This document shows positions 3,624 through 23,700 of a DNA stretch of 64,000 nucleotides, piece by piece. The stretch is taken from IMG/VR virus record IMGVR_UViG_3300008117_004020, positions 54,148 through 118,147 of that record; one strand, given 5' to 3'. The notes beneath the pieces are model-generated. The model did not search any database, had not been told where the DNA came from, and was given only the letters and a program-made list of their open reading frames with translations. Position 1 is the first letter of the stretch, and each line of letters opens with the position of its first letter. This DNA is from a virus. A program made the translations under genes and the position numbers.

Positions 3624-3892
3624 TGGAAGGACAATTAGTAAGAGTAACAGAGTTGTCACCTATTATTGTAAAAGTGTATAATCCTTTAAAACAAGAGCTG
3701 ATAGGTGTTTTTGAGAACTATTCTAAGGCTGCTAGAGCACTAGGGCTTACGCCTAAGATTGTATATAACAAAGCCACCTCAAAGAAAAGAGTGATGTCAC
3801 CCTATCTAGAAATTGAAGTGGCTATACGTATTACTAGAAAAAAACCAGAAGATAAGTTCTTTATGAGCGAGATCTTCAAAAGAATATTATAA
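3623..3892 (+). CDS. Small NUMOD1-like helix-turn-helix DNA-binding protein
   Basis: VYN..ELIGVFENYSKAARALG resembles NUMOD1; TAATG coupling with the upstream gene. Confidence 0.55.
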   Translation: MEGQLVRVTELSPIIVKVYNPLKQELIGVFENYSKAARALGLTPKIVYNKATSKKRVMSPYLEIEVAIRITRKKPEDKFFMSEIFKRIL

Positions 3893-3920
3893 TTACGCTG
3901 TGTTTTGTTAGTTAAGGTCA

Positions 3921-3958
3921 AAGGGGAGGATGTTTCTACATCTTCCCCTTATTTTTTT
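3921..3958 (+). terminator. Intrinsic terminator at the convergence of the replication and virion blocks
   Basis: AAGGGGAGGATGT-TTCT-ACATCTTCCCCTT 13-bp stem (one G.U) followed by ATTTTTTT. Confidence 0.85.
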
Positions 3959-6900: not shown

Positions 6901-9900
6901 GATATCTCAGATAGTTCAGTGAACAAAGCAGCTCTTTCATCATAGTACCTTTGAGAAATCACCTGGCGGGTATTATTAGCCAGCCATCTTTTGTACATCT
7001 CACTGTCCTCACCATATGTTAGTTTCATCTTTGTCTTAGCTCTCTCAAACGCTGCTCTAAGTTCTACATCTTCATAGATGAGATTCTTGTTTTTCTGATA
7101 CTCTCTCAAAGCCTGAGCTATCTTTAAGTCATCTCCTGTCTTATCTGTACCATCTAGATTTTTTATTTCCATAAGAGAATAGTATTTCTCCCATAGCTCT
7201 TGTCTGGTTTTAAGATGATCTTCGCTAAGTTTACCCTCAGCAATAGCCTCATTATCATACATCATCTCTATACCTCTGATTTCCTCAAATATCTTGCTGG
7301 TAATTTCTCTTATACTAGTCTTTTTATTACCATACATCACTTCTGTATCCAACATTTTAGTAAGATCAAAGTAAGCTTTTGTATAGTCTGACTCAAAATA
7401 TTTACGCTCAAAGTCTTTAATTTCTTTTTTTACTCTTTTAACTTCATCTTCAGACACCTCATCAGCCTCAAATTTCTTGTTTGTTAAATATAATTTACGC
7501 TTGAGTTTATCATACTCATAGTATAAACTTTCATCAAACTCAGATTTAAACACCAGACCAAAACTCTCATCACCTGATGCTATATCCAGTCTTTTAGCCT
7601 CATAGACCAATGACTGATTGATTTCCTTAATATTAAGACCTCTACCATAAACTTTAGCACGTTTATTAAATTCAGGTGACAGTTTATCTCTAAAGTCTTT
7701 CATCTTTAATCTCACACCATCTAATACACGTTTTAATCTCTTAGCAACAGATGCTATAACAACATCTGGATTAGATATTGTAGGCAACCATTTGCTCAGA
7801 AACGCACCTGCATCACCCATGCCACCTGTCATAGTAGCTTTAATAACATCATAACTTGCTAGCTGATCTCTCTCCTTTGTAAGTTCTGCCACTCTTTTTT
7901 TATCTTTTCTTTGCTCAGCAGCCTTAATAAGCTCATTGTATTCTCTCTTCATATTATCTAATAAGTCTTTTGTAAACTCTTCAGATAATGTAGAAGCAAC
8001 GTGTGGGGTGATAGCTTTAATATAACTAGTTCTTATGTTCTCAATAGCACCCATCATTTGTGTAAGCCTGTCAACAAGAATATTATCTTCAGCTACAGTG
8101 GTACCTAAAGCATCCAACATTTCTTTAAATACATTCTCATAGCCTATTACAAAGTCCTTGATCTTTTCTAGCTCCTTAATCTTTTGAATAGCAGCCTGTT
8201 GTGTTGCAGGGGTTAACGCTTTGAGTCTATCAAACTCTTTAGATATAATATTAATAATAGGCCCAGCAGAATCAACCAGCTCAATAAAAGCTTTTTGTAT
8301 AGCCACCATATTACGCAAATCCCCATCTTCACCATAGTTTTCTAAGAATGTCTTAACAAGGCGTTCCATTTGTTCCACCTTGTTGACTTTATCCTCATCA
8401 GTTAATAAATCATATACATTCCTAACATCCTTGTTTTTCTTAAAATAAGCATAGATTTGATCCAACCTACCCTTCATTTTAGCAAACGCCTCTTTCATCC
8501 TAGGTTTACTAATATTCTCTAAAAGTTTAACCCTAGCATCTTCTTCTTTGGATGTCTCCTCTTTTCTGTTAGCATCCATACTCATATCAAGATCTGGGAA
8601 ATATCCATTTGCCAGCCTATCATTAAATGGTGTTGGAGCTGTCTGAAAAACACCAATCTTATTAATCTTATTGGTTGCAGGGTCAATCTTATATCCTACA
8701 CCAATAATAGTAGTGTCGCCCACCTTTACACCTTGAGACATCAATATCTTCTTATAAATTGACATCTGCTGACTATATTTTTCCCTAAGTCTTCTTCTAT
8801 TACCCACTAACTCAGGAAGAACACCTTCAGATTTTCTTACACCACCTGTTGATAACAAATCAATTACATAGTTAAATTCATCCTCTAGATTAGTAAACTT
8901 TTTAAACTCAGGTCTATCTTTTAAAAATTTAGTTTTAAAGTCTAATATGTGTGCTACACCATTCTTGTCAATAGCAATAACGTCAGCCACACCACCCACT
9001 TCTAAATTACCTATCTCAGTCTCAGTCATTAAAATATGACCCTCATCAATAAGTTTCCTAATAATCCCTCTAATTCCAGGTTCTCTTAATGTACCATTGA
9101 TAACTTTGTCTAGCGTAGACTTATCCATGAAAGTATAAATAATAGGGTCAAGATTGTCTAAATCAATCTCTCTATCCATTATAATATTCTCCACTATACT
9201 ATGTATAGCTGTACCAAAAAGAGTCTTCTTTTGATTTTCAGATGCAGAATATAACAACTCTGTTATCCTATCTCCTAATACTGTCTGAATATCTTCTTTC
9301 TCATATTCACCCTTAATGATTTTATCAATCAAATGCGCTGCAATCTTTTTAGCAATCACTTCATCTGAGTCTCCAATATCATACACATCAGAAAACTCAA
9401 TATCATAATTGCTCACCAATTGCAGTACAACATCTGGACTTTCAAGTTCACTATAAAAGTCAGAGCCAAGCAGTCTACTAGGAGATTTAAGTCTTATTGG
9501 TTCACCTGTGATAGGATCTAATACAGTGAGACTATTGTTATCTTCACGCTTGATTAAAGCTGATATAGCAATAATCTTATTTAACGTATCTTTTTGTGAA
9601 TCATTCATAGACTGAGCCTCATAGAATGACTTAGCCTCATCTGTAAGTTGGTTATAAACCTCACTAGATGTAAGGTTCATGTTAAGATTACTGATGTCCT
9701 CTGCCATAAACATCTCTTCTAAAATATCAATAGGGTCTCTTTTTAACTTAAGAGCTTTCACCCATGTCATGATTCTTTGTAAAAGAGCTCCCAGCCAAGA
9801 TTCTTTTGCTTTGATGTTACTAGCCAGCTTTTTAGCCAATGCTTCACGCTGTATCTTATCAAATCTAATCTTACCATCTGGGGTTCTATAGTTGGGATTG

Positions 9901-10601
9901 TCTTTATACTCTGCTAGTGTATCTTTATACACCTGAGTGTTCCTGATTTTATCCAGGGCCTCTCTTAATTCAGGCATATCTTGAGGCAACATATCTATGA
10001 AAAAGTGTAATGCTTCTTCAGGTAGAGCTTGCATCTCTTTACCTTCTTGTATTCTCACCATCCACTCTGCCATATCAGCTACACCATTAGAACCATACCT
10101 CTTCATTATATCATTAGACACCTCAATAGGTACACCTATTCTTCTTAAAAATGACCTAGCCACCTGTTCACCTGTCCTCTTATCTTTATTCATCTGAGAA
10201 GCTATATTATTCCAGCTATCTACACCTGCAGGATTAATAGCAACATAGTCTCCACTATATTGTAAAACAGCACCATATTGTGTTGAAATATCTCCTAGTC
10301 TTTTACCAAGGTCATCGATAGTCATATTAAGAGCATAATATGTCAACCCATCCCTCTGTTGTGATGAGTCATATATTAGCCCTCTTTCCATCAACATACC
10401 TTTAATCTTCTCCTCAGACAATGTAGGGAGTGATTCAAAAGACTTTAATAATCCTACATTAGTGATTAATTCTCTAGCTTCAGCCACAGACACAGGCATC
10501 TCATTACCCTTTCTTATAAAAGCTAACATAGCACGATCTTCTCCAAGTTTCTCAGATAGATTTTGCCATTCTCTAGATAGTTTATTAGGACACGCTAACA
10601 T
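3957..10601 (-). CDS. Giant virion cargo/ejection protein (2214 aa) with a degenerate zincin-like region and a PD-(D/E)xK nuclease-like domain
   Basis: Next to the vRNAP gene; EEALH in place of HExxH; GTAIH...E...GVADVIAIDKNG.AHILDFKT...YSQQMSIY pattern; hydrophobic C-terminal helices. Confidence 0.75.
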   Translation of the reverse strand: MLACPNKLSREWQNLSEKLGEDRAMLAFIRKGNEMPVSVAEARELITNVGLLKSFESLPTLSEEKIKGMLMERGLIYDSSQQRDGLTYYALNMTIDDLGKRLGDISTQYGAVLQYSGDYVAINPAGVDSWNNIASQMNKDKRTGEQVARSFLRRIGVPIEVSNDIMKRYGSNGVADMAEWMVRIQEGKEMQALPEEALHFFIDMLPQDMPELREALDKIRNTQVYKDTLAEYKDNPNYRTPDGKIRFDKIQREALAKKLASNIKAKESWLGALLQRIMTWVKALKLKRDPIDILEEMFMAEDISNLNMNLTSSEVYNQLTDEAKSFYEAQSMNDSQKDTLNKIIAISALIKREDNNSLTVLDPITGEPIRLKSPSRLLGSDFYSELESPDVVLQLVSNYDIEFSDVYDIGDSDEVIAKKIAAHLIDKIIKGEYEKEDIQTVLGDRITELLYSASENQKKTLFGTAIHSIVENIIMDREIDLDNLDPIIYTFMDKSTLDKVINGTLREPGIRGIIRKLIDEGHILMTETEIGNLEVGGVADVIAIDKNGVAHILDFKTKFLKDRPEFKKFTNLEDEFNYVIDLLSTGGVRKSEGVLPELVGNRRRLREKYSQQMSIYKKILMSQGVKVGDTTIIGVGYKIDPATNKINKIGVFQTAPTPFNDRLANGYFPDLDMSMDANRKEETSKEEDARVKLLENISKPRMKEAFAKMKGRLDQIYAYFKKNKDVRNVYDLLTDEDKVNKVEQMERLVKTFLENYGEDGDLRNMVAIQKAFIELVDSAGPIINIISKEFDRLKALTPATQQAAIQKIKELEKIKDFVIGYENVFKEMLDALGTTVAEDNILVDRLTQMMGAIENIRTSYIKAITPHVASTLSEEFTKDLLDNMKREYNELIKAAEQRKDKKRVAELTKERDQLASYDVIKATMTGGMGDAGAFLSKWLPTISNPDVVIASVAKRLKRVLDGVRLKMKDFRDKLSPEFNKRAKVYGRGLNIKEINQSLVYEAKRLDIASGDESFGLVFKSEFDESLYYEYDKLKRKLYLTNKKFEADEVSEDEVKRVKKEIKDFERKYFESDYTKAYFDLTKMLDTEVMYGNKKTSIREITSKIFEEIRGIEMMYDNEAIAEGKLSEDHLKTRQELWEKYYSLMEIKNLDGTDKTGDDLKIAQALREYQKNKNLIYEDVELRAAFERAKTKMKLTYGEDSEMYKRWLANNTRQVISQRYYDERAALFTELSEISKNPNADRITELYKELNALTKPYRDNDGAVVGSKVPSDKIQRIKDLQQEIESLRDEVEEYTPDGFTYAEKQTLKQQFYFRTNEPENYDKYTVNSIYAARDERLSSDPDLRAKVERAGEIKAQLKAMGNMEYTKYYYEELDRQEIAFAKELDVSHEELRRDDTLYDQFRESAWFLENHNKEVRSLFDTEHGESLTSASFTPIAIWTRNAPLEEYIEEKPARHFYSRKLKESYINEKGEEVKLINKDNRDIQNRYKPKSNEEYRKEYGTDHPYLNKDFVSLRDKYNNNTANEYEKVDYENLLFIHKEMLDAQQDIEPRYRLGLAVPFMEKSKTERALGVKVSETKESVKSVWQGIKRSLSRTESDVDTGFASDPGVSRDMAKLATIDNDEVKYVPVKYTSKGQASDASYDVWGSVLNYVGSTIRKKELDKELSLINGLEQILSDQENQPKSESKNLMLNNVMKKYLPEVEQRINLGSNIRLEVFKSFINSVLYNEEHFEGYDVLGFNTQKMLNQMMGLTSFTLLGLSPLNWSVNWISGNVQNMVEAAGGRVINYKDFMQAKKDLYLDSKNGHIMKDMMADFNKVGELSFWGQMMEIFDPIQGEFENEFGNKTAWNSYKNILKLGIYSGKVWGEWEIQMSSFLAYLKSVRLYNGKMYDRETFVTMKVGTDFSGMTLKQIREKKLEALREFDKLDVNLIDIFEMKDKKVQVKDQYKNAFDLNSKQFSDVVSKLHAMQKRINGSYAKFDAAYQAKSSIGRAMFFFRKYFMQLGMNRWGIRRADYEGMSVEQGFYLTFLQTAGKDLIKMRLNVVKNWENYSDMERAAIKRTFADLGAMLLTYIIYGVMFGYDDDEKGRLKELRRKSWFTQYMVYTMLKVRSETEQFIPLPQAGLGEIQRIYSNPSILLNINTNFLSMAGLMIDHLLGLFGGDTESLYYKRDSGESEFKERGDSKLLAMLVQTFIGYTGKTFHPVDAIQSFEYQQRAK

Positions 10602-10614
10602 ATTAATATTCAGT

Positions 10615-13600
10615 TTATTTTAGTTTACCAAGACAAGACATTCTTTGTAAGAATTCTTCTATTGTTTCTCCAGATAGTTTTTCTTTATTATACATTCCTT
10701 CCATTTCTTCATTAGTCATCTCAAGAACCCATGGAAGCATTTCTCTAAATGCATTAATCTTACTATTAGTATCTACTGTACTAGTAGATGATTCTGCTTG
10801 AGGTTTGCCCATTAGTTCTGTAAAAGATCTTGTATCAATCTTATCATAAGTTGTAAAGTTCTTTTCTTCTGGTTTTTTTGAAGCAATAGCTATTTCACTA
10901 TCCTCATTTGGATAAAAGAACAGCTCATCAAATCCAGACTTGTTTATTACTTTCCAATAAGTATTATCTATATACCAGTGTTGACCATCCACTTGTAACA
11001 TTCCTTTGCTAGTCTTTTTGCCACCAGCTTTAATAAACATATCTTCAACAACTTTTTTACTATCTACTGTTTCTGTAGTAGGTTTAGTTGATAAGTTTTT
11101 AATCTTATACACATACACTTTCTGATTACCCTCCAAAAACTCAGGACGCAGGGTTCTTGTTTGTCCAGTGCTAATCTTCTCCATTAAGTCCATCCAAGAT
11201 GCGAACCCTTCATTCTTAGCATAGTATTCTTTCTTCTCAGGTGTATTTAAGTCATTGACTGTTATAGCTTTATAAAGAGATAGCTCAATTGGAATGACAT
11301 TACCTTCAGCATTTTCTGTTTGATAGACGCCATTCTTAATTATATAAGTTCTACTTGTGAGAGTCTTTTCTCCAGACTTAATCTTCTCTACATTATAAGA
11401 CTGCATCTTAATCTTATTAGTAGTAGTTGTTTTCTCACCAGCTTTAGGCATAACCTCTTCTTTTATTCTTTTTAAATCTATACCCATATCTTCAGCATAC
11501 CATTTACCTCTCTTAGGACTTTCCCCAGTAGGTGTGGAAGAAGTATCTCTATTGTTAAAGAATGCTGGGTTATTTGCCTTAAACTTAAATGAGAAGTTTT
11601 GATATTCAAGTTCTTTCTCATCATTCTCCAGTTTCATAAACTCATCTTGTGAGTATTCATACAACTTGTTTACAATATTCACAGGTGTGGTTCCTGTAAA
11701 ACTATTTTGAGCTGTATTATATCCAGATTGGAAAATAGAATACAAAGCTAAATTTCTAAAAAAGTCTTTAACTATCTTTAAATCAGGATCTTCTAAGTTT
11801 ACCAAATCCTCAAACTGAGCAATTACACCATCTTTTTCTACAGAGTTATTAATATTCTGCAGAAGCTTAAAGTTAATAAAGTTTTTGGTATTTTCCCCTG
11901 GTTCAACGATTATATTTTCTATCAGAGGATACTGCTCAACCAGGTCAGCATAAAAAGGCAACTGTTTAATCATTGTAAACTGTTCCCTCATTAAAGGTGT
12001 TTCTATAAGCTCCTTTAAATACTCATTAATATCTTTGTCTGTACCAAATGTTTCTTTAAAAAACTCCATACCTGCTGTAGACTTGCCCAAATAATTCTGA
12101 AGAATATAGTTCATCAGGTCATTTTTATATGTCCTAGCATACTTATTCATATCATCATCACTTACAATAGCTGAGTTCTTCTTATTGCTACGTTCTGATA
12201 ACACATCTTCTAGCAAAATCATATTTAACTCTCTAGAATCACGTAAAGGGAAAAGTTGCTCTAAAACATCAATTATAACACTTCCAGTATCTAGAGGAGA
12301 AATAATACTCTCTTTCTTTATTCTTCTTAGTGTATCAGGAGACAACACATTACTTTTTCTATTCACTGCATTCACATAAGATACATTTCTAGCATATGCA
12401 TCAAATGAACTTACATATGGTTTAGTATCAAAGTTTAAGAATCTTTGAGCTGCAGTTAAACTATCTGATTGCTTTTTTTGATTCAGAAACTCATGTAATA
12501 CAGCAAGTTGTAAAAACTTTTTATCTGCAGGAAGCTTTGATATATCTGTTTTGTCATCAGCCAGAATATTATTATAAAGATTCTGTGATGTAAATTGATT
12601 ATTAAAAGATATTTTTGATTCTTTAAGTTTCTTACCTATTTCACTTCTAGGATCTGCTGTCATATTAATATCAGTAAATCCTAGTTGCTTAACTGTCTCA
12701 GACATAGCTTTAGCTCTAGCACTTGACCTAAGTTTACCAAGCTTTATTCTAAGCTCCTGATATTCCTTGTTATCTACAATCTCATCTGGACCATAGCTCA
12801 TCATTTGTCTTTCTACATCAGTGGCAGTTTTTTCTAAGTAGTTCTTAACAAACATACTCTCATACTTACTAAGATTCTTTACATAAGTACGCATTGCAGG
12901 CTGATTAATAAACGCAAAAATCTTTCTAGATGATAGTCCCGCATACTTCATATAGAATGCCACAGGTGTAAGTTCAGTGACAAAGTTGATAGCAAAGATG
13001 TAGTCATCATTCGCAGCATCTACAAATGAGCTAATAAACTCAGCAAAAAACTCAGACTTATGTACACCATCCTCGTCATAAATATCACCATAAAATGTAT
13101 TAGTGATTAAATTATCCTCATTCTTTGCTACATCACTAGAATTAAAGAATGTGGTAATATTCTGTTTTTCAAAGAATAATCTATTACCTGTAGCATTAGA
13201 CAGCTGAAACAATACATTAAATGTATTAGCCACAGCTGCAATACCTAAGTCAGACTTACTCTTAAGAAGACTCATGAACTTTTCAACATTCCTCACCCTG
13301 TTAAGAATATCAGTGTGAGCATAATCATTAGCTACACGTTTGCCATCCTTAACATTTTTGGGATACACCTTCTTATATATCTTATCTACAAGTGGTAGAA
13401 TATGATAGTTTGTAGATGGTGTAACCAACTCCATATAGTTGCTAGGATGAAGTATGATTTCACTTAATACATCATACATTTCATTCTGTAGAGTGGCCCT
13501 AAATGACCCAGCATCTATTCTTTTTAAATCTTCAGGTGTATATGGAATCTTTGTATACTTACCATCCTTATCAAGATTAGGATAGAATGTAAACATCTTA

Positions 13601-16600
13601 TCATAGTCAAAGTCAGAACCAGACTTAATGATAGCCTCTGTAGGCATGATGATAGCATCTCCAAATGCAGCAGGTAAAAATTCAACCACTTCCATAACAT
13701 CCAAGAAGTTTCTACCCTGTGTAGGAATACGATAGGATATCATCCTAATAGACTTCTTATTCTCCTTACGCCAATTCTCATCTTTTAGTGCGCTATTAAG
13801 TCTATTTAAAGAATCAATAGGCATTCCATCTGGGTGTGTAAGCTTTAATAAAGACTCCCATTGCTTTGTAAATCCTATCTTAACCTGCATCTCTGTAATC
13901 GATAGAGCACCATTTGTTCCAGTAAATACATCATAAGATTTCAACTCACTATTACCAAAGGTCTTTGTAGCTTTTTCAGAAGCTTCTCTGCTAAATTTCT
14001 TAGCTGATCCAGTGATAGCCACTTGGGTGAGCATACTACCATTAATCTTATATCTTGGTATTCTATTATTAATAGATGATATAAGTATACCTTCTATAAT
14101 TTGTGCTTGTACAGCAGCATCCAGTCCTATCAAAAACTTACCTGAATCTTTAGAAAGCATCAAAGCTTTACGAACATTTTGATCTTGATTCTTCTTAGAA
14201 ATCTCTTCCTCAAAATACTTCACTAGCTTTTTCATATCTGTCACTGCAAGCACACCAGCTTTATCAGTGATACCCAATTTATTATATATCTCAGTTTTTT
14301 CTATCTGAATAAGTCCATCAACTAACGACTTATATCTACGATATAGATTTTCAAACTCTTCTTTTTTGTAAGATGACTTAAGAGACAATATATTCATCAA
14401 CACAAGCTTTCTCATCTGTGAACCAAATGGAGCTTCTGTATGTGCTTCTGAATCAGCCTTCACCTGCTCTTTAAGATGATTAAAGAATATGGTGTGCTCA
14501 GAATCAAACTTAGTTTTACCAGACTCCACTCTTAAATCAAATGGAATGATGTATCTTTCTTTAGGATTGTTAGCATCGTAGTTCTCATACAAATCATCCT
14601 GTTTCAGAGGTGTTTCAGTCTTACTACCTGTTTTAAATTTAACATATCCCACACCCTCAAACTCCATCCTATCAGCCAAGTCTTCATCCTCAGTGTTTTC
14701 TATCACTGTAGGAATCAATGGTTGCAGTGAAAACTTATCAAACATTGGTACATGTGAATCAAATAATCCTACAGATGTATAAACCTGATGTTTCATTGGT
14801 CCAGAATACTGGAACTTCTTAGGAGGAAAATACACTTGCTCAGCGGGATCATATCCTATAGCATCTCTTTTAGAGATATACTCAGTTCTCTTTTGTTCAT
14901 CAGTGGTACTCTTAGCCAGCTTATTATAATGTGCATATTCTACAATCTTTTTATAAGATGCCTCTTGGTCTGCTGTCCAGTTATTAGTGAGAATACTTAT
15001 AATCCTATAAAAGTCAAATGTGCATTTACCCTGACCATCAGCCTCCTTACCAGAATAATTATCCTGAATGGCTTGCTTAAGACTATCTTTATATAAATTA
15101 TAGTTCTCCTCAGAAATATATCCAGCAGCATATAGTCTTTCAATATTAGCAGGGATCTTTGTTGCCTGCTCAGAGTTAAACACCACATCTTTTAATATAC
15201 CAGACTTATACTCTTTAGAAACAGTCTGTCTGGATATAATCATATTCTTTGTATCCTCATCAATCTGACCAAGCTCAAACAACCTTTCAGCTAACAACCT
15301 ACCAGACAGATTAGTATTAGCACCTATGTCTTGTTGGTTCTCATAGTTGTTAAAACGAGCAATCAAATCATTCTCCATAAAGGTGAATATACCTGTAGCT
15401 GAGTCTTTACCAGCTCTTTTATGAAATGCTTTAAAGTGGATGGACCCACCAAAGAACAGTTTCATATTATCAAGATCAATCAAGAATGTATTAGCTATGT
15501 AGTAGTTAATAGACGACCTTAAGTCAGGCATTGTTTTAAAATTACCCTTTCCTAATAGATAACTACTCTCAACAATACTTTTTGCAGATGCAAGTTTATT
15601 TGCAAACTCCTCTGAATACTCGTTAAAATACGCTGTTATAGCATTATTAATCTCTGCTTTATATCCATCAATAAGATTACTAGCTTCAGCAGGAGAGTTA
15701 ACTTCTTTAAGTTGAGCATTTAACGCATCCCTCACTTCAGGAATCCTATTCATAATAGACTCAAACTCTCCCCATGTGTTTAGAATGTTCTTACTAGCAA
15801 AATCCAGGTCACTGTAAAACCCTTTCTCTCCTAAAAACTTAAGAGCAGAATGGTTTTTAATACCATTAGTCACTTGTGTTAAAAACAATTCTGACTTGAA
15901 TATACCATTGTCCCCTTTATACTCAGCGACACCCAAAGGTCTTGGCATAGGATCACCTGTAAGAGGATTATAATAATAGTTGGAATGAATGGATAGGTCA
16001 GTGGATTTATCGCTCAATCTTGTAACACTAGAAAAACCCTGTAGATTAAATGTATTAATATCCTGTAAAAGTTTATCTATATCACTTAGGTTGATGGTGG
16101 AAGCAGCATCAGACCTAAAACCATTTTCTTTAAGTTGTATACCACCAGTATTATTTATGTTTAATACTACAGGTGTACCACTACCATCAGTCACGTATTT
16201 ATATCCACTACTTGTGAGTTTTACTCTTCTTCTCTCCCCAAAGTTATCAGCTGCAGGGTCAAAATAAAATAAACTATTAAGATATAAACTGTCTTTAATT
16301 CCAGGATTAGTAACAGGGTTAAGCCAAGACAAAGATGGCTCAGCATCTAAAATATCCTGTAATTTAGGATAGGTTTTAAAATCTGATAGTGCTTTATTAA
16401 TAACAGTGAAGTTATTATGATATTGAGAGGAGTGCTGTCTATTACCCTCAGGATTGATTACACTACGCTCTATACTGTAAACAGGATTGTATTTAACCTC
16501 AACATCAATTATATTATTGATGACATTGTTCTGTCCTGTCCTGTCTTTATTCCAGTCTTTTTTTAGTGATGCAATTGGATTAGTGATGACATCTGTTTTT

Positions 16601-17790
16601 CCTACAACACCATATCTTCTATTATTGCTAGGAACAGACAACCTATTAATCAAATGCCCTGATATATAATCTATGAATTTTTGATTAGCAGGCAGCTTCA
16701 TAATCTCCTCAGTCTTAGGAGATAGCTGAAAACCCACTGCTTTTAAAAATGCCACCTTTCTTGCAGCAACACCTTCACTTGCTGGAATCTTTTTAGGGTC
16801 TAGAAAATCCTTAATCTTAGATAGGTCATCATTAGACAGTGTCCACACACCATCTTCTTGATGTGCTAGATTTATAATTTCTCCATTAACTACAACAGGC
16901 ATCCCATTTAAATAAAAGTTAGACTCTACAATCTGCTCATATTTACTTCTGGATGCTACAGTGGTTTGAAACACTTTAATAAGGTTTCCTTCCACTGATG
17001 TCATATAGATGGGAATAGTAGCCTTTGCAAATGAATTTCTAAATGCAATCTTGAATTTAGTTTCAGCCATGTTATCTCCTGCTTTAAACTCAAGCTTATC
17101 TATAACAGACTGATACTCAGGAACTTTATCTAAATTATTCTTTAGTCTTTCAATTATCTCAGCAACACTTGTAGTATTTTCTAAATCTACAATAAGACCT
17201 CTGGTAAAAGAACCATAGTCTACAGGCACTGTAAAACCATAGTCATCAAATACATCTGCACTACGAGGGATACTAAGTATGAACAGCTCTACAGCTTTGT
17301 CAATAGTATCAAATGGATCCATCTCATTAGCTGCCTGATCAAATACTAACTTTTTAAGAACAGCATCATCGTCATCAGACACCATGGATAAATCCACCAT
17401 ACCCTCCTCATCCAGCTTAAACTTAGTTTTTAATTTAAACGCTCTACCATATGCTGCCATATTTGCAACAATATCATTCCAATTAGCATTTAAAGTTCTA
17501 AGATTGGATGCAAATGTCATATAGACATCTGCTACATCTTCATTACCATTTTGTTTTTCAGCTCTAGCACGAGCCTCATACTCAGCAGCTTTATTTGTAA
17601 TTAATTGATTAGCAGTCTTATACAACTGTTCTAAATCAGACCTATACTTAGCTGGATCACTTGTAATCTGTGCTAATTTAAAAAAGTCCATGTTCATCTG
17701 CTCCACAGCACGAAACATGAAATATTCAGCCTTATTAATTACTTTAGGAAGAGATTCAATCTTTAAATCAATAGAACAATTCTTAGCCAT
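10615..17790 (-). CDS. Virion-packaged single-chain RNA polymerase (crAss-like, phi14:2 gp66-type), 2391 aa
   Basis: Catalytic SGSDFDYDK (DFDYD at 13600-13614), upstream YRIPTQG, ADGQG, and downstream LGIAA and FVDAA motifs; flanked by two other giant genes. Confidence 0.9.
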   Translation of the reverse strand: MAKNCSIDLKIESLPKVINKAEYFMFRAVEQMNMDFFKLAQITSDPAKYRSDLEQLYKTANQLITNKAAEYEARARAEKQNGNEDVADVYMTFASNLRTLNANWNDIVANMAAYGRAFKLKTKFKLDEEGMVDLSMVSDDDDAVLKKLVFDQAANEMDPFDTIDKAVELFILSIPRSADVFDDYGFTVPVDYGSFTRGLIVDLENTTSVAEIIERLKNNLDKVPEYQSVIDKLEFKAGDNMAETKFKIAFRNSFAKATIPIYMTSVEGNLIKVFQTTVASRSKYEQIVESNFYLNGMPVVVNGEIINLAHQEDGVWTLSNDDLSKIKDFLDPKKIPASEGVAARKVAFLKAVGFQLSPKTEEIMKLPANQKFIDYISGHLINRLSVPSNNRRYGVVGKTDVITNPIASLKKDWNKDRTGQNNVINNIIDVEVKYNPVYSIERSVINPEGNRQHSSQYHNNFTVINKALSDFKTYPKLQDILDAEPSLSWLNPVTNPGIKDSLYLNSLFYFDPAADNFGERRRVKLTSSGYKYVTDGSGTPVVLNINNTGGIQLKENGFRSDAASTINLSDIDKLLQDINTFNLQGFSSVTRLSDKSTDLSIHSNYYYNPLTGDPMPRPLGVAEYKGDNGIFKSELFLTQVTNGIKNHSALKFLGEKGFYSDLDFASKNILNTWGEFESIMNRIPEVRDALNAQLKEVNSPAEASNLIDGYKAEINNAITAYFNEYSEEFANKLASAKSIVESSYLLGKGNFKTMPDLRSSINYYIANTFLIDLDNMKLFFGGSIHFKAFHKRAGKDSATGIFTFMENDLIARFNNYENQQDIGANTNLSGRLLAERLFELGQIDEDTKNMIISRQTVSKEYKSGILKDVVFNSEQATKIPANIERLYAAGYISEENYNLYKDSLKQAIQDNYSGKEADGQGKCTFDFYRIISILTNNWTADQEASYKKIVEYAHYNKLAKSTTDEQKRTEYISKRDAIGYDPAEQVYFPPKKFQYSGPMKHQVYTSVGLFDSHVPMFDKFSLQPLIPTVIENTEDEDLADRMEFEGVGYVKFKTGSKTETPLKQDDLYENYDANNPKERYIIPFDLRVESGKTKFDSEHTIFFNHLKEQVKADSEAHTEAPFGSQMRKLVLMNILSLKSSYKKEEFENLYRRYKSLVDGLIQIEKTEIYNKLGITDKAGVLAVTDMKKLVKYFEEEISKKNQDQNVRKALMLSKDSGKFLIGLDAAVQAQIIEGILISSINNRIPRYKINGSMLTQVAITGSAKKFSREASEKATKTFGNSELKSYDVFTGTNGALSITEMQVKIGFTKQWESLLKLTHPDGMPIDSLNRLNSALKDENWRKENKKSIRMISYRIPTQGRNFLDVMEVVEFLPAAFGDAIIMPTEAIIKSGSDFDYDKMFTFYPNLDKDGKYTKIPYTPEDLKRIDAGSFRATLQNEMYDVLSEIILHPSNYMELVTPSTNYHILPLVDKIYKKVYPKNVKDGKRVANDYAHTDILNRVRNVEKFMSLLKSKSDLGIAAVANTFNVLFQLSNATGNRLFFEKQNITTFFNSSDVAKNEDNLITNTFYGDIYDEDGVHKSEFFAEFISSFVDAANDDYIFAINFVTELTPVAFYMKYAGLSSRKIFAFINQPAMRTYVKNLSKYESMFVKNYLEKTATDVERQMMSYGPDEIVDNKEYQELRIKLGKLRSSARAKAMSETVKQLGFTDINMTADPRSEIGKKLKESKISFNNQFTSQNLYNNILADDKTDISKLPADKKFLQLAVLHEFLNQKKQSDSLTAAQRFLNFDTKPYVSSFDAYARNVSYVNAVNRKSNVLSPDTLRRIKKESIISPLDTGSVIIDVLEQLFPLRDSRELNMILLEDVLSERSNKKNSAIVSDDDMNKYARTYKNDLMNYILQNYLGKSTAGMEFFKETFGTDKDINEYLKELIETPLMREQFTMIKQLPFYADLVEQYPLIENIIVEPGENTKNFINFKLLQNINNSVEKDGVIAQFEDLVNLEDPDLKIVKDFFRNLALYSIFQSGYNTAQNSFTGTTPVNIVNKLYEYSQDEFMKLENDEKELEYQNFSFKFKANNPAFFNNRDTSSTPTGESPKRGKWYAEDMGIDLKRIKEEVMPKAGEKTTTTNKIKMQSYNVEKIKSGEKTLTSRTYIIKNGVYQTENAEGNVIPIELSLYKAITVNDLNTPEKKEYYAKNEGFASWMDLMEKISTGQTRTLRPEFLEGNQKVYVYKIKNLSTKPTTETVDSKKVVEDMFIKAGGKKTSKGMLQVDGQHWYIDNTYWKVINKSGFDELFFYPNEDSEIAIASKKPEEKNFTTYDKIDTRSFTELMGKPQAESSTSTVDTNSKINAFREMLPWVLEMTNEEMEGMYNKEKLSGETIEEFLQRMSCLGKLK

Positions 17791-20700
17791 TACTTACAAT
17801 TTTTTTCAAATATTTCATCATATGTTGGAGCTCTAAACTTCTTTTTCTTCTTGATAGCATTTGTCTCTTGCTCATTCTGAGATATTTTACCATCAGTGTT
17901 TACATTGTTTTTAACATCATTCTTAACTGCGTTAGGGTCATTTAATAAGTCATCAGCTGTTTTACCCGCAGGTGTTGCAACTTGAATATCTCTAGGGTTA
18001 GTGAAAGCAACTATTGAGTTATATCTTATTAATTGATCTTGTGCTGGTATTTCTACAGTGTCTGAGCTAAGACCCACCTTAGTCATTATAAAGTTCTTGT
18101 AGTCAATGTCTCTAAACTCTACACTCTTAACACCTTCTTTATCTACTATGACTGGGAATAAGAACTGCTCAAATCCTGTCTCCTTGTTCCACCACTTCTT
18201 AGATATATTAATAGGACGATTACCCACTTTATTTACCACCTGAGCTAGTACAGCCTCATCAATCAACGCTTCTCCATTAACCACTTTAATCACATCATAC
18301 ACTGTTGGCGTATCATCATTATATTGTTTAATTGTAAATCTTGACAATGTATTAGGAATCTTAAAGTTTTCTCCAGTGAGCCAGATGTTATATACAAATT
18401 TAATAAGATTTTCCTTAACTACATCAGCATTTTTATCTCCTCTTAATAACATCTCATGGTATGTTTTCATAACATCCACAATATGATTTATAAATGGAGT
18501 TTCTACACCATTCTTATTAAAATTAACATATCTAGTGTTAGGAGGATATAGAGGCTCTTCATTCACTGCACCATTTTTATCCTTAATCATCATCATTAAT
18601 ACACCCTTGTTATTAAACTTAAAGCTAATATTAGGCTGCATTAATTGAGCTAAGAAGCCAGGGTCTTTAGCTGTATTCTTACGATCAGCTTGATTACTCC
18701 TAGCAAGTTTTCTTTTATTCATCTGTCCAGCTGAAATCACAGTGAGGTCAGCAATCTGAGGATTACCTGCCATAGCTTTTCTTCTAGCTTCATTTAACTT
18801 ATCATAAGACTCTTTAGTGAGAAGCTTAGCCATAGGTGACTTGCTATCCTCAGCAAACAATTTAAAGTAGACTATTTGATTCTCCCCATTGTCTAAACCT
18901 TTCTTATCAGATAGATTAGCTCTGTCTAATGTACCCAATCTAGTACCATCTTTAGCAAATACAATAGGATTTCCATTTATATCAGACAAGAAACCAACCA
19001 CTCCTTTTTTAGCAGCTTTCCAATCTTCATCAACTGAACCATCCCACCTAAGTCCTTCATTATCAGCATGTATTGTAACAAATACATCTCCCAGCTTTGC
19101 CTTGTCCATTATATGAAGAGCATTGATGATAGCTCTCACTTTATGATAATACTGTGTAAAATAAGGAGTTTCCTGTTGATTGCTAGGAAATACATCATTA
19201 TTAAGAGACCTTAGAGCATTTGTATCCATTGCACTAATACCTTGTGATGGGTCAACTACACTAGCATCAAATATAGCAGGGTCAGAACCTTGTTTATGTA
19301 CTGGAGGTGTGTATGTTACATCGCCTTCATCTGAACCTGTAGTTTCTGTTTCTTCTTCATCTGCAGGTGCTGGTTCTTCTCTTTTATTTTGAAGCTCTAA
19401 TTCAATTTTAGTCTGAAGAGCATCAGAGATATTAACACCTAATGTTTGTTTAAGAACAGAATTTATATACCTACGAGTCTCCTCATATTCTGAAGAATCT
19501 ATATTACCACCCTCAATTAAAAACTGCATGTAATCAACCAATTGACTTTCACTAAAATTTGTATCATCTTCAGTGAGAATTTCTTCTAAGGAAAGACCTT
19601 TTCTGTCAATGCTGATTAATCCTTTTTTAATTAACTTCTCTATATTAGATCTTGAATCTATATATCCTGTCAACTCATCATAGTTACCTACAGCTGTAGC
19701 TCCATACCTATCTTTTAAATATGCATATTTCTTTGTAAGCGCTCCCTCTTTTACAAACTTCCAATACTCATTTTTAAAGTCTGCATAATCTTTTTGACTC
19801 TTAAATGGTAGGGATATAACCAGTCCTACAAATGGTGCATATTGAGATTCTGACAATGGAACATCTAGCATTTGACCAGATGCATATGATCCCATTCTAT
19901 CTGGATCACCCATTATATCTATAACATTACGTCTTAATGAATCAGATAATAATTCATTTATAGACTTTGATTTAAGAAGTTGCATAAACACTTGCTCATA
20001 AACAATCGCAGCCTTAACAGGAGTGACACCCTTTCTTGTTTTATTAAACACCTCAAGGATGCCATTCTTTGTAGTGTAATAGTATGTTTGTTTTCCAATC
20101 TTAACCTTGGACATACCCTGCACTTGTTTAGAAGCCTCTTTATCTCTAATGGACTGTATTTTAGAACTGATTAACTTCTGAGCACTACTATATAAAGATG
20201 GCACCATAGAGTCTTCGTAGTTAGTCAAATCCTCAGAAAGACTATTAAGCTCTTCAATAGTGCTAGCCTCAGCCACCTTACCTAATAATTCATTAGTGTA
20301 GTTAGACTTAATCAACTCTGCAGTCTGATTAATCACCTCATTTAGTACAGTGCCCTCAACATCAATGCCTATACTCTTTAATAAGTTAGACAGAATTTCA
20401 AGGAATTTCTCCCACACTGACTTGCCAGATTTAGCATATGGTATAGTGGATAGAAGATGCTGAAATGATGGGTTGGTGAAAGCCTCAATAACAAACTCTC
20501 TTATCTGCTCATCATCTGTAAGATTCTCTTGGAATGCATAGAAAGTCTTTGCAGCTGGATTATTTCTTACAGCAGCCATAGCAGACTTAATAGCTTTGGT
20601 AAACTCACCAGAAGGATTTTGAAGTTCCAACTCTATCTCTCTGTGCAAAAGCTCATGTAGAATAACTGTTTCAATAGGAAGATAGGGTTTTTCTTCTGTG

Positions 20701-23700
20701 TAACCCACCTGCTTCATATTGATAGCTACATTATTAGTATCTGGATCAAAGTCTCCTGATGATGGTAATGAATTATTAACTTCTATTGTATCATCAGCAG
20801 CTGTCCTACCTAATAACTTTCTAGCCAGCTCCCTCTCACCCAGTGTTGCAAACTCACTATTAATAATATTCTGTAAAGCTAATCTTGTATTTATCCTACC
20901 ATCTTTAACTTGATATTCTTGCATCAAGTCTTCTTCAGTTCTAATATCAGCGTCATCTTTAGCACGCAAAGCCAACATTCCAGGTTTTGATCCAGGCTGT
21001 ATAGTGGTCAGTTCTTCTAGTGTTAACTCAGGCATAATCTCTTCATAACCAGGAGCTCTTGACAACTTACCCCTACTAGCTTCTATTAAATCCTCTTTAT
21101 ATTGTCTAACTTGCTCCATCTGAGAAGCAGTCAAAGTTCTTTGCTCACCATTAAGAATCCTTACAATCTCTTCATCTGTAAGAGGAGTTGGTGCAGCTTG
21201 ATTGTTAAACATTATAGCCTCCACTTCTAACACTGTAGCAATCATTGCTTTAGATACATTACGTAAATCTCCAGCAAAAATAGTAGGAGCATGTTTATTA
21301 ACTAGTGCTTTTATTAAATTATCAGCTTCTTTCTTAGTAGAAGCCACCCTGATATTTTCTATTACATCTAACAAATCATTATAATAAGTAACAACATCAG
21401 GTTTATTATTAGCAGCCTTTTTTAAAAACCTCTTAGCTATTTCTTCAACTTCAAATGCTGACAATACTTCTTCTATAGATTTATAGACAGTACCTTGCTG
21501 TAAAAATTTATTCTTTTTATCTGATAAAGACTCTAGATTTGCCAATAAATTAGCTTCACTCTGTACTCTATTAATAGACCTGTTATACTCCTTTAAAAGC
21601 TTATACTGCTCATCTGTAATTTCTGATGTAATGGGAATATTAAGTTCTTCTAATATATCAGCTACTTTAATTGATTCTTTATCCTGAGCATATCTAGTTT
21701 TAAAATCATCTATAATATCTTTAGCTTTATATTTAATCTCACCCTCTGATATTTTACCTTTATTAGATAATAAATAGTTAGTAATTTGTTCTTCTAGTTC
21801 ATCAATTTTTCCTGTACTTATAAATATATAAGCTGCTTTATTAATATTAATTGTATAAATCCTAGCTACACCAAGATTAATATGCTCACTAGCATCTGCT
21901 TTTGTACCTAAAGCTTCTAAATTAATACCATCAACATCTGCTGATAATGTACCAGCATTTATAAGATTACTAATTGCAGCTTTTTGACCTGCAGTTGCAG
22001 GATTACCACTGGTTTTACCATTTACAATTGATACATGAGTATCATTTTCATAATCATTATCTACATCAACTGTTAGATTAACCCCCTGCATTTTAGTTGC
22101 TACTGTTTGACTCTGCTGTTTAAATATTTCAAGAGCACCTTGAATCTTTGATTTATATGCAGCTAAATCATTAATGTATTGTAATACAATACTATCATTT
22201 TCAGCAGACCCTTCCTGTTCAATCTTATTAATAGCCTCTTGATATCTCTTATCTATAAGAGACACATAGTATTTGATTAACTCTTCTTTTATTTCAGGGG
22301 ATGCCTGCTCACCTATTATAGTCAAAGCAGCCTCATCCATATCAGACAACAACTGAAGATTTTTAATAGCATCAGCTATCCTAGACTTGAGAGCAGCCAT
22401 GTTTTTAGAATCAGCATTCTTCTTAAGAGTTCTCACTATACTATCCCTCTCATTATTAACCTTATCCATCCACTTTGCTCTCTCAATATTATCAGCCAGA
22501 CTATCTAGCACTGGTGTAAAATCCTCAAATGCTTTTATCACCACTGAAATAGCAACATTAGAATTCTTAAGCAGGTCCCTAATCTTTTGTCTTACAGTAT
22601 TATAAGCTGCTTTGAATTGAGGATCATCTTGAGAATAGACTTTTTTAGGAAGACCTATAAGCTGAGTAGCTCTTTGTGATATAGCCATCTCCACCTTGTC
22701 TCTTTGCTCAGGAGATAGTGAATCATATTTAGCATTACCTGGAGTGATGTAATCAACAAAATCTTCTAATAATTCATCTTGTGTAGCATTACTAATCCTC
22801 TCAATAAGATTATCAACATCTACTGTTGGGGTTGATGGTGTAGGTGTAACAGGAGCTGCTTGTTTACCACCTTCTAAAGCAGCCAGTTCTGCATCATACT
22901 TAGCTTTAATTGCTTTGTATATTGCAGGAATAACTCCTGTCATATTAGGATCTAAACCATATTGTTTAGCATAAACTTCTTTACCTCTTCTCTCAAAATC
23001 AATTTCTTCTTTTCTTAATCTTTCTTCTATATGTGCTTCAATAAGCTCTCTATTTGATTTGTTAAAGCGATTATCAAGTTTTTCACCTTCAAAATAAACT
23101 CCATCAGCCTTCACTTCATAGTTAGTACCATCCACTTTACCTAATGGTATATCAGGTCTTGTAGGAGGCTGTGTAACTGGAGGAGTTGCAACTGGTTGAG
23201 GAGTAGGCTGTTGCGACATTGCTTCATCTAAATTCTTAGCAATCTCGTTAGCTTCATCTTCTGTAGCAATGCCCTTCTGTACTAAATTACCCTGTGGACT
23301 TATTACAGAGAATGTGCCATCAGCATCTTGTTTAACTGTATGTACATTTCCTATTTGTTCAGGAGCTGTTTCTACCTCTTTAGCAGTTTGATAATAATTA
23401 TTATATTCATCAAGAATCTCATCCATCAACTCATCCACTGTATCAAACTCTCTATTTGCTGCAGCTTCTCTAAGCCTAGCATACAACACCTTCACCTTAG
23501 GTTGATTAGCAAAATCAGTATTAGAGTCTAGTTCCTTGAGCAACTCTGTTCTTAGTTGTACAACAGCTTGCCTTCTAAACATCTCAGCTGTATAAAATTT
23601 TGTAGCTGATTCAAAATGTCTGTCAAACTGTTCAGCAAAACCTTCAGGTGATGAAAGTAAAGATATATTAGTGACAGCCCTGCCCTTATCATTATTAAGA

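What the first reader, a model, noticed from the sequence alone, without database searches (positions are those of the whole stretch)
10590..17798. Terminal cysteines suggest the three giant ejection proteins link head-to-tail
Seen (manual count): the 2813-aa protein has one Cys, its penultimate residue (EKNCK, 17796-17798). The vRNAP has three: residue 5 (MAKNCS, 17776-17778), one internal, and one six from the end (RMSCLGKLK, 10633-10635). The 2214-aa protein has one, residue 4 (MLACP, 10590-10592). So 4 of 5 Cys in about 7400 aa lie at the two junctions in gene order, and the outer termini have none. Established: crAss-like cargo proteins are thought to exit unfolded through the tail. Inference: disulfides (or metal bridges) join them into one ordered chain that is threaded into the cell and released by reduction.
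Basis: partly seen in the sequence, partly recalled or inferred. Interest (0 to 1): 0.82.

Follow-up and report, generated by a model that had tools for sequence, protein, structure and literature searches.

The report
Cysteine-tipped junctions chain crAss cargo proteins
Three giant proteins that this crAss-like phage packs for injection, with its RNA polymerase in the middle, have almost no cysteine except one at each end that faces the next protein, a rule kept across the whole phage order and pointing to untested end-to-end disulfide links.

Summary
On the minus strand, A (2813 aa) has one Cys, its penultimate residue. B (2391 aa, virion RNA polymerase with a DFDYD motif) has Cys 5, Cys 923 and Cys 2386, sixth from the end. 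C (2214 aa) has one Cys, residue 4. Chance is about 5e-10, and the three proteins are about 23-fold Cys-depleted.

The pattern is conserved. Homologues: A 22/22 C-terminal Cys, B 59/65 N-terminal and 63/65 C-terminal, C 57/61 N-terminal. No outer terminus carries one. In 52 distinct IMG/VR loci, 51 have both Cys at the boundary upstream of C. All 16 named Crassvirales genomes follow the rule, with caveats listed in the report, including crAss001, where gene A lies on the other strand. Where genes are fused, I saw no obvious Cys pair in the few fusions whose junction could be roughly placed, and the remaining break keeps both Cys.

A solved precedent exists. In cyanophage A4, gp27 Cys1715 and gp26 Cys5 are each protein's only Cys and form a disulfide in the virion (PMC12002296).

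I found no paper describing this for Crassvirales. This scan noted the same pattern before on other DNA (160 notes).

The parts
17790..26231 (-). Gene A: 2813-aa cargo protein with a single Cys. It has an HELLH motif at residue 1859. It is weakly similar to crAss001 gp47 and crAss002 gp32, and residues 1800-2040 resemble phi14:2 gp65.
   Evidence: no Pfam or PHROG hit
17796..17798 (-). Cys2812 of A, its penultimate residue and only Cys (TGT).
   Evidence: Of 22 homologues, 22 have Cys as last or penultimate residue and 21 have it as their only Cys.
10615..17790 (-). Gene B: 2391-aa virion RNA polymerase homologue. Its ATG overlaps A's TAA stop (TAATG).
   Evidence: tblastn matches phi14:2 g066 and crAss002 RNAP among 84 records. 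BLASTP matches crAss001 gp50 and phi14:2 gp66.
17776..17778 (-). Cys5 of B (MAKNCS).
   Evidence: Invariant in 37 aligned relatives. 59 of 65 homologues have an N-terminal Cys within 9 residues.
13600..13614 (-). DFDYD (residues 1393-1397 of B), the DFDxD catalytic-type motif of crAss-like virion RNAPs.
   Evidence: D1393, D1395 and D1397 are invariant. The motif is named in the abstract of bioRxiv 10.1101/2020.03.07.982082 (listing).
15022..15024 (-). Cys923 of B, an internal Cys that is not part of the junction rule. It is present in most close relatives (consensus GQGKCTFDFY) and absent in phi14:2 gp66.
10633..10635 (-). Cys2386 of B, sixth residue from the C-terminus (RMSCLGKLK).
   Evidence: Invariant in alignment A1. 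63 of 65 homologues have a C-terminal Cys within 9 residues.
3957..10601 (-). Gene C: 2214-aa cargo protein with a single Cys. It is homologous to crAss001 gp49 and phi14:2 gp65 and starts 13 nt after B's stop.
10590..10592 (-). Cys4 of C (MLACPNK), its only Cys.
   Evidence: C4 is invariant in 36 aligned relatives. 57 of 61 homologues have an N-terminal Cys within 9 residues.

Best explanation
A, B (the virion RNA polymerase) and C are ejected cargo proteins under strong selection against cysteine. The four cysteines they keep are selected in pairs: A's C-terminus with B's N-terminus, and B's C-terminus with C's N-terminus. The most likely mechanism is as follows. After the termini dock non-covalently, each pair forms an intermolecular disulfide in the virion. 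This stitches the three proteins into one linear pseudo-polyprotein of about 7,400 residues, in gene order, with overhangs of only 1-9 residues. Such a string could pass a narrow tail channel unfolded without branching or loops. The host's reducing cytoplasm would then separate the parts.

Shown: the positions, the Cys depletion, the order-wide conservation, the independence from gene adjacency and the absence from outer termini. Seen only coarsely: no obvious Cys pair in the fusions whose junction could be roughly placed. Shown elsewhere: a real disulfide of this kind in cyanophage A4, and disulfides in the crAss001 tail. Inferred: the bond itself in Crassvirales, when it forms, threading as one chain and reductive release.
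For: (1) Positions and chance.
(2) Homologue families from a 5.8-billion-protein search (tallied, window's own proteins excluded). A: 22/22 C-terminal Cys, 0/22 N-terminal, 21/22 with a single Cys in 2444-4791 aa. B: 59/65 N-terminal and 63/65 C-terminal, and 25 of 65 have exactly two Cys. C: 57/61 N-terminal, 0/61 C-terminal.
(3) Same-genome pairs. 5/5 complete IMG/VR triplets carry all four Cys. Of 75 loci found with the C alignment, 23 were dropped: 9 duplicates, 8 with C cut at the locus end, 6 with no upstream giant ORF in the locus. Of the 52 kept, 51 have both Cys at the boundary upstream of C. That is 49 strictly, and 2 only with an internal Met as start. 8 of them have 155-4973 nt between the two genes.
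(4) 16 named Crassvirales genomes. phi14:2 gp67, gp66 and gp65 have Cys only at the last residue, at 3 and 2179 of 2180, and at 3. In crAss001 and cr112_1, gene A is on the opposite strand and still ends in its only Cys.
(5) Fusions. Three Intestiviridae fuse B+C. A keeps its penultimate Cys in 3/3. No Cys lies between residues 2140-3119 (crAss002) or 2380-4198 (cr8_1). Nine Suoliviridae fuse A+B. The fused protein ends in Cys within 2-5 residues in 8/9, and C starts with Cys at 3-6 in 9/9. cr55_1 has no Cys at all in its first 4025 residues.
(6) Outer termini carry no Cys within 9 residues in 16/16 named genomes at each end.
(7) Precedent. A4 gp27 Cys1715 and gp26 Cys5 form a disulfide in cryo-EM (PMC12002296, passages read). 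They are the only Cys of the 1717-aa and 1114-aa proteins.
(8) crAss001 virions contain real inter-subunit disulfides, in the tail hub and rings and in gp57 (PMC10172136, passages).
(9) Ejection proteins of Schitoviridae are nearly Cys-free (PMC11445570, passage). Retained Cys in such proteins are therefore unlikely to be neutral.
Against: No crAss-like virion has been shown to contain these links. Bayfield et al. ran MS on reduced and non-reduced crAss001 virions. The passages I read report nothing about cargo cysteines ('cysteine' occurs 0 times), and their supplements were not seen. Virions assemble in a reducing cytoplasm. I found no thioredoxin or glutaredoxin gene in this genome, and the Erv1/Alr search was uninformative because its control rang nowhere.

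Exceptions:
- In cr273_1 the nearest C-terminal Cys is 50 residues from the end.
- One relative has gene C split into 928 + 1278 aa with no Cys at the split.
- 6/65 B homologues lack an N-terminal Cys. One is N-truncated, and P0042 starts about 800 residues into B with no Cys.
- crAss002 and cr110_1 fit only if the start is moved to an internal Met (Met-Ser-Cys at 33-35 and 15-17).
- Some gut lineages carry many internal Cys (26 in cr130_1 gp79).
- Fusion junctions were placed only roughly from BLAST offsets, not mapped.

Fusion data do not by themselves exclude homotypic links. Homologues are related, so the counts are not independent events.
Confidence: 0.6

Rival explanations
1. The terminal cysteines do pair across each junction, but not by a disulfide. 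They could share a metal ion, or simply be packed contact residues of a non-covalent dock between the C-terminal tail of one protein and the N-terminal domain of the next.
For: The residues flanking the Cys are conserved, which fits a specific docking interface: A ends ...IFEKxCK, B starts MANNCS, B ends ...EEFLxRMSCLGKLK, and C starts MxxCPNKxxxEW. In A4 the gp27 C-terminal helix inserts into a cleft of gp26 and is only 'further stabilized' by the disulfide. The cytoplasm where assembly occurs is reducing, and no phage thioredoxin or glutaredoxin gene was found (the Erv1/Alr search was uninformative).
Against: Each terminus offers one thiol and no conserved His, too few ligands for a usual Zn site. 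In distant relatives the flanking sequence changes completely while the Cys stays. The one solved analogue shows a disulfide.
Confidence: 0.12
2. The terminal cysteines link to other partners. These could be homotypic (A-A, C-C, B-B), or links to portal, capsid-interior or other cargo proteins, anchoring each protein in the capsid rather than chaining A-B-C.
For: Nothing here shows which Cys meets which. Fusion data are also compatible with each free terminus having its own partner. crAss001 has many structural disulfides among tail proteins.
Against: Only the facing termini carry Cys. The outer N-terminus of A and the outer C-terminus of C do not, in 16/16 named genomes and 0/22 and 0/61 homologues. 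Both partners of a boundary co-occur in 51/52 loci. The neighbouring cargo-like proteins in the window have either no Cys or only closely spaced internal pairs. The A4 bond is heterotypic between consecutive gene products.
Confidence: 0.15
3. Each terminal Cys has a separate role unrelated to pairing, such as a packaging or processing signal, or a site of modification.
For: The first authors of the phi14:2 RNAP structure assume that fused polyproteins are cleaved into parts, so processing exists in the block. N-terminal M-x-x-C motifs could be recognition sites.
Against: Distant relatives share no motif beyond the Cys itself. The fused forms I could place roughly show no Cys pair near the presumed junction. 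The asymmetry between facing and outer termini is unexplained by this reading.
Confidence: 0.1
4. Chance or an annotation artefact, for example start and stop calls that happen to fall beside Cys codons, or a nucleotide-level signal at overlapping gene junctions.
For: All junction Cys codons but one of the 24 examined are TGT, so codon choice cannot separate protein-level from DNA-level selection. The A/B junction overlaps (TAATG).
Against: P is about 5e-10 in the window alone. The pattern holds when gene A is on the other strand and when 155-4973 nt separate the genes. It also holds at 21-26% identity with unrelated flanking sequence.
Confidence: 0.01

Closest known systems
Cyanopodophage A4 (Anabaena phage A-4L, Saffermanviridae) pre-ejectosome proteins gp27 and gp26, PNAS 2025, PMC12002296
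   Same: Two consecutive giant ejection proteins are each nearly Cys-free. gp27 (1717 aa) has its only Cys 3 residues from the C-terminus. gp26 (1114 aa) has its only Cys at residue 5. Cryo-EM shows these two form a disulfide in the virion, with the gp27 C-terminal helix inserted in gp26 (passages read).
   Different: A4 has one junction, not two. No RNA polymerase is named among its four pre-ejectosome proteins in the passages I read. The pair sits in a pentameric ring on the portal. There is no detectable homology between the C family and gp26 (hhalign probability 0.2); gp27 was not compared. The paper presents the bond as a local stabiliser, not as a chaining rule.
RNA-polymerase-associated cargo block of Crassvirales: phi14:2 gp67-gp66-gp65 and crAss001 gp47, gp50, gp49
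   Same: The proteins are homologous and are virion-packaged cargo (passages). The DFDxD motif is present. They show the same terminal-Cys rule.
   Different: The window's phage is only 21-27% identical to them over parts of the proteins, and its proteins hit no PHROG or Pfam model. The papers I searched do not mention the cysteines. In bioRxiv 10.1101/2020.03.07.982082, 'cysteine', 'disulfide' and 'Cys' each occur 0 times. In PMC10172136, 'cysteine' occurs 0 times.
Ejection proteins of Schitoviridae (N4 gp50-52, DEV gp71-73)
   Same: A giant virion RNA polymerase is ejected with two partners. Cys is strongly suppressed (0.00075% in gp71 homologues against 0.865% in the proteomes; PMC11445570, passage).
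   Different: Those proteins lack Cys altogether, including at the termini. The N4 paper PMC13434306 has 0 occurrences of 'disulfide', 'cysteine' or 'covalent'. No chaining is proposed.
Fused polyprotein forms of the same block in other crAss-like phages
   Same: They keep the same order A-B-C. Fusion of A+B (Suoliviridae) or B+C (Intestiviridae) gives a peptide bond where the window has a Cys pair. A triple fusion is mentioned.
   Different: The link is a peptide bond, and the phi14:2 authors presume it is cleaved. I did not see a triple fusion myself.

Membership tests
Crassvirales virion RNA polymerase (phi14:2 gp66 type) | Sequence homology to gp66 and its orthologues | tested here: met
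   tblastn gives 84 crAss-like records, including phi14:2 g066 (24.5% over residues 1012-1648). BLASTP to gp66, crAss001 gp50 and crAss002 gp33 gives E 1e-12 to 1e-17.
Crassvirales virion RNA polymerase (phi14:2 gp66 type) | DFDxD catalytic-type motif | tested here: met
   DFDYD at residues 1393-1397. The three Asp are invariant in 37 relatives.
Crassvirales virion RNA polymerase (phi14:2 gp66 type) | Packaged in the virion and ejected | not testable with these tools
   Known for phi14:2 and crAss001 by MS (passages). Inferred here by homology and by position next to tail and cargo genes.
Crassvirales RNAP-associated cargo triad (A/B/C) | Two giant partner proteins homologous to gp67/gp47 and gp65/gp49, flanking or near the RNAP | tested here: met
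   C matches crAss001 gp49 (E 7e-19) and phi14:2 gp65 (E 4e-9). A matches crAss001 gp47 only weakly (E 8e-8 over 259 aa). Gene order A-B-C is as in phi14:2.
Disulfide-tethered consecutive ejection proteins (A4 gp27-gp26 type) | Sole or near-sole Cys within a few residues of the facing termini of consecutive ejection proteins | tested here: met
   and the tallies
Disulfide-tethered consecutive ejection proteins (A4 gp27-gp26 type) | Disulfide observed between those Cys in the virion | not testable with these tools
   Seen for A4 only.
Disulfide-tethered consecutive ejection proteins (A4 gp27-gp26 type) | Homology to A4 gp26/gp27 | tested here: not met
   hhalign of the C-family alignment against gp26 gives probability 0.2 and E 0.38. 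gp27 was not compared. The resemblance is therefore functional, not one of membership.
Cys-suppressed ejection proteins (as in Schitoviridae) | Cys frequency far below that of the phage proteome | tested here: met
   A 0.04%, B 0.13% and C 0.05%, against 1.28% overall and 1.58% for the rest. Across the homologue families the values are 0.035%, 0.097% and 0.068%.

The most novel reading that the evidence does not exclude
Across Crassvirales, the RNA-polymerase cargo triad is a redox-stitched pseudo-polyprotein. Two terminal disulfides replace the peptide bonds that other lineages make by gene fusion. The Cys must sit within about 9 residues of the ends so that the 7,000-residue string can pass the tail unbranched. 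Reduction in the host cytoplasm is then the switch that frees the polymerase for early transcription. The same solution arose independently in a cyanobacterial podophage, which would make it a general design rule for ejected phage proteins.
Probability: 0.4. Interest if true: 0.8.

Novelty: new variant of a known kind. Interest (0 to 1): 0.68.

Why it matters
CrAss-like phages are described as the most abundant viruses of the human gut (abstract of PMC10172136). How they order, store and eject about 5.5 MDa of cargo, including the polymerase that starts infection, is still open in that paper (passages). A covalent but reversible head-to-tail tether would fix the 1:1:1 stoichiometry and the order of exit. 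It would explain why the three genes are fused in some lineages and split in others. It would also provide a redox trigger for the first step of infection. The idea can be tested directly on two cultured phages, phi14:2 and crAss001, with a non-reducing gel and cross-link MS. It gives annotators a simple rule as well: two Intestiviridae start codons look mis-set by it, and it helps recognise the cargo triad in very divergent phages such as this one, whose proteins hit no Pfam or PHROG model.

Tried and rejected
Pfam and PHROGs on A, B and C gave nothing. The search for related loci with B alone found no relative in IMG/VR; alignments were needed.

Codon choice at the junction Cys was uninformative: 23 of the 24 codons looked at (window plus 5 loci) are TGT and 1 is TGC.

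I looked for a phage-encoded thiol oxidoreductase in the whole 118-kb genome. Thioredoxin gave nothing (control 13/14). Glutaredoxin gave only a 14-bit noise match containing a stop. The Erv1/Alr search was uninformative because its control rang in 0 of 14 genomes.

Homology of the C family to A4 gp26 was rejected.

I considered a nucleotide-level signal at overlapping junctions. I rejected it because the rule holds with genes on opposite strands or kilobases apart. I considered lipoprotein-type or intein-type N-terminal Cys chemistry. No signal peptide and no conserved block follows the Cys, and distant relatives share only the Cys. This rejection is by inspection, not by a tool.

BLAST shows that P0042 begins about 800 residues into B and that P0063 is an N-truncated form of P0066. 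The others remain unexplained.

Literature searches found no paper on terminal cysteines of crass cargo. One search was swamped by Neurospora crassa.

Full report
WHAT IS THERE. The window is bases 54148-118147 of a single 118,147-bp IMG/VR virus record, estimated 98% complete. GC is 34.5%. On the minus strand lies a run of giant ORFs:
- a 1622-aa ORF and a 2169-aa ORF;
- a 191-aa ORF;
- a 1309-aa ORF with an M23-type peptidase match;
- a 1035-aa ORF;
- then A (17790..26231, 2813 aa), B (10615..17790, 2391 aa) and C (3957..10601, 2214 aa).

A's TAA stop overlaps B's ATG (TAATG). C starts 13 nt after B's stop. None of A, B or C hits Pfam or PHROGs.

B is a distant homologue of the crAss-like virion RNA polymerase. 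tblastn finds 84 crAss-like records, among them phi14:2 g066 and the crAss002 RNAP. B carries DFDYD at 1393-1397 with all three Asp invariant. C is homologous to crAss001 gp49 and phi14:2 gp65. A is weakly similar to crAss001 gp47 and crAss002 gp32.

THE OBSERVATION. It is exact. A has one Cys (2812 of 2813). B has three (5, 923, 2386 of 2391). C has one (4).

With uniform placement, at least 4 of 5 Cys in the 24 residues of the four facing termini has P = 5.5e-10. With all six termini and 9 residues each, P = 1.4e-8. In my crude ORF set the phage proteome has 1.28% Cys (475 of 37,206 residues), against 0.04%, 0.13% and 0.05% for A, B and C. About 117 Cys would be expected and 5 are seen.

CONSERVATION IN EACH FAMILY. 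Three searches of the 5.8-billion-protein collection gave 65, 22 and 61 homologues besides the window's own proteins (tallied).
- A family (21-67% identity, 2444-4791 aa): 22/22 have Cys as the last or penultimate residue, 21/22 have no other Cys, and 0/22 have an N-terminal Cys.
- B family (22-57% identity): 59/65 have Cys within the first 9 residues (positions 3-6) and 63/65 within the last 9. 25 of 65 have exactly two Cys in up to 4100 residues.
- C family: 57/61 have Cys at position 3-7, and 0/61 have one near the C-terminus.

The misses:
- P0063 is N-truncated relative to P0066.
- P0042 begins about 800 residues into B.
- P0046, P0047, P0051 and P0066 are unexplained.
- P0029 (1841 aa) lacks the C-terminal part.
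- P0045 has its last Cys 16 residues from the end.
- P0140 and P0143 are short C fragments.
- P0144 and P0148 look like mis-set starts. P0148 begins with the motif that normally follows the Cys.

Cys5 and Cys2386 of B are invariant in 37 aligned relatives. Cys4 of C is invariant in 36.

PAIRS IN THE SAME GENOME. With the B alignment I fetched 6 IMG/VR loci. All 5 with complete triplets carry all four Cys.

With the C alignment I fetched 75 loci. I dropped 23 of them: 9 duplicates, 8 in which C is cut by the locus end, and 6 without an upstream giant ORF in the locus. 52 distinct loci remain, 6 of them on the same contigs as the first set. In 51 of 52, the protein upstream ends in Cys 1-9 residues from its end and the C-like protein starts with Cys. 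That holds strictly for 49, and for 2 only if an internal Met is the start. 41 of the 52 C-like proteins have exactly one Cys.

The one failure is not a B|C boundary. It is an internal split of gene C into 928 + 1278 aa with a 108-nt gap and no Cys (L004/L027). That contig's true B|C boundary has both Cys. In 8 loci, 155-4973 nt separate the two genes and the pair is still there.

NAMED CRASSVIRALES, AND THE NATURAL EXPERIMENTS.

Steigviridae (4 genomes):
- phi14:2: gp67 (1797 aa) has its only Cys as the last residue. gp66 (2180 aa) has exactly two, at 3 and 2179. gp65 (1421 aa) has its only Cys at 3.
- crAss001 and cr112_1: gene A (gp47, gp006) lies on the opposite strand from B and C. It still ends in its only Cys, 3 and 2 residues from the end. 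B has Cys 5 and a Cys 9 from the end. C has its only Cys at 5.
- IAS virus fits, with B apparently broken by ambiguous bases.

Intestiviridae (3 genomes) fuse B+C.
- A keeps a penultimate Cys in 3/3.
- cr8_1's fusion starts MANNCS.
- crAss002 and cr110_1 fit only if translation starts at an internal Met (Met-Ser-Cys at 33-35 and 15-17).
- None has a Cys near the fused protein's C-terminus.
- No Cys lies between residues 2140 and 3119 in crAss002, where BLAST offsets put the junction near 2800, or between 2380 and 4198 in cr8_1.

Suoliviridae (9 genomes) fuse A+B.
- The fusion ends in Cys 2-5 residues from the end in 8/9.
- In cr273_1 the Cys is 50 residues from the end, ahead of an acidic tail.
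- C starts with Cys at 3-6 in 9/9, often as CPN like the window.
- cr55_1 has no Cys at all in its first 4025 residues.

In all 16 genomes neither outer terminus has a Cys within 9 residues.

So the rule is protein-level. It concerns only termini that face a partner. Where a peptide bond does the joining, I saw no Cys pair in the cases I could place. Fusion junctions were placed only roughly.

WHAT IS KNOWN.
- Bayfield et al. (PMC10172136; passages read) list gp45, gp46, gp47, gp49 and gp50 as crAss001 cargo and argue for partial unfolding during ejection. They see real disulfides in the tail and in gp57. They never mention cargo cysteines.
- The phi14:2 RNAP preprint (10.1101/2020.03.07.982082; passages) has no occurrence of cysteine or disulfide. 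It purified gp66 in DTT/TCEP. It notes that the three proteins are fused in some phages.
- Lokareddy et al. on DEV (PMC11445570; passage) document near-total Cys suppression in Schitoviridae ejection proteins and link it to periplasmic passage. The N4 paper (PMC13434306) has no hit for disulfide or cysteine.
- Earlier notes of this scan pointed me to PMC12002296. I read the passages. In cyanopodophage A4, the C-terminal helix of gp27 inserts into gp26 and Cys1715-Cys5 form a disulfide. I then checked the genome: those are the only Cys of the 1717-aa and 1114-aa proteins, 3 residues from the end and at residue 5.
- The C family shows no detectable homology to gp26, so this is an analogue, not a relative.

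MECHANISM. The best reading (about 0.6) is that two heterotypic disulfides tie A-B-C into a linear string.

The steps shown are the positions, the depletion, the conservation, the asymmetry between facing and outer termini, and the independence from gene order. The fusion pattern is seen only coarsely. The steps borrowed from elsewhere are that such a bond exists in A4 and that crAss001 virions are oxidised enough to hold disulfides.

The steps inferred are:
- docking of the conserved terminal motifs before oxidation;
- formation in or after assembly, without a thioredoxin- or glutaredoxin-family gene detected in this genome (the Erv1/Alr search was uninformative);
- passage as one unbranched thread;
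- release by host reductants.

The closeness of every Cys to a chain end (1-9 residues) is what an unbranched thread would need. The other cargo-like proteins tolerate only closely spaced Cys pairs. In the window these are 23/35, 1175/1188 and 1924/1929. Elsewhere they are crAss001 gp45 390/398, phi14:2 gp69 369/378 and A4 gp28 1036/1039. This fits the same constraint, but it is my inference.

The rivals cannot be excluded without biochemistry: non-covalent or metal pairing, links to other partners or homotypic links, and separate roles for each Cys. Chance is excluded.

LIMITS.
- Supplements were closed.
- The homologues are related, so the tallies count lineages, not independent events.
- Start codons are predictions.

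VERDICT. The feature is real and conserved across the order. I found it in no paper for Crassvirales. This scan has noted the same pattern before on other DNA (160 notes in at least 143 genomes).

Noticed in passing
window 54664-63887 (-) and genome C1:142-1521: The distal virion genes are very Cys-rich: 977 aa with 44 Cys, 394 aa with 26, 429 aa with 25, and 356 aa with 19. Two of them end in poly-Thr tails (…TTTTTAAPIT and …TTTTTAAPIL). This is the opposite of the Cys-free cargo block and suggests heavily disulfide-bonded external fibres.
   Followed up: no
window 29402-33331, 33924-40433 (-): The other cargo-like giants keep only closely spaced Cys pairs: 23/35 in the 1309-aa M23-peptidase protein, and 1175/1188 and 1924/1929 in the 2169-aa protein. 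The 1035-aa and 191-aa proteins have none. The same is seen in crAss001 gp45 (390/398), phi14:2 gp69 (369/378) and A4 gp28 (1036/1039).
   Followed up: partly
window 17790-26231 (-), residue 1859 of A: An HELLH (zincin-type) motif sits in A. A residues 1800-2040 resemble the N-terminal part of phi14:2 gp65, which is the C-position protein there. The protease-like module seems to have moved between members of the triad. cr110_1's A-position protein is annotated as fused to a zincin protease.
   Followed up: partly
P0004, P0009, P0011, P0012, P0018, P0022, P0023, P0028, P0032-P0035, P0042, P0052 (B homologues): Many B homologues carry extra precomputed Pfam domains: PF13532 in 11 close relatives, PF18760, PF00075, and helicase families in P0042 and P0052. 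The A1 alignment has a long poorly conserved stretch just before the last conserved block that bears the Cys, so that stretch may be where accessory modules are inserted. I did not place the domains along the proteins. One A homologue (P0078) has PF06414/PF13671.
   Followed up: no
L004 5811-12541 (= L027): In one relative, gene C is split into 928 + 1278 aa with a 108-nt gap and no Cys at the new ends. It may be a recent split, an insertion or an assembly error. It is the only boundary of 52 without the pair.
   Followed up: partly
L010 16545 (crAss002 gp33) and L022 16527 (cr110_1 gp40): The annotated starts are probably 32 and 14 codons too far upstream. An internal Met-Ser-Cys would give the N-terminus that the rule predicts.
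   Followed up: partly
window 51963-53021 and 53479-54597 (-): Two neighbouring ORFs (352 and 372 aa) share the same first ten residues and nearly the same last ten, so they look like a tandem duplication. One matches a PHROG annotated as a peptidase (E 2.9e-6).
   Followed up: no
L031, L047, L063, L072, L081, L092, L096: In several distant relatives, 0.5-5 kb of extra DNA lies between the Cys-ended upstream protein and the Cys-started C protein. I did not examine what it encodes.
   Followed up: no
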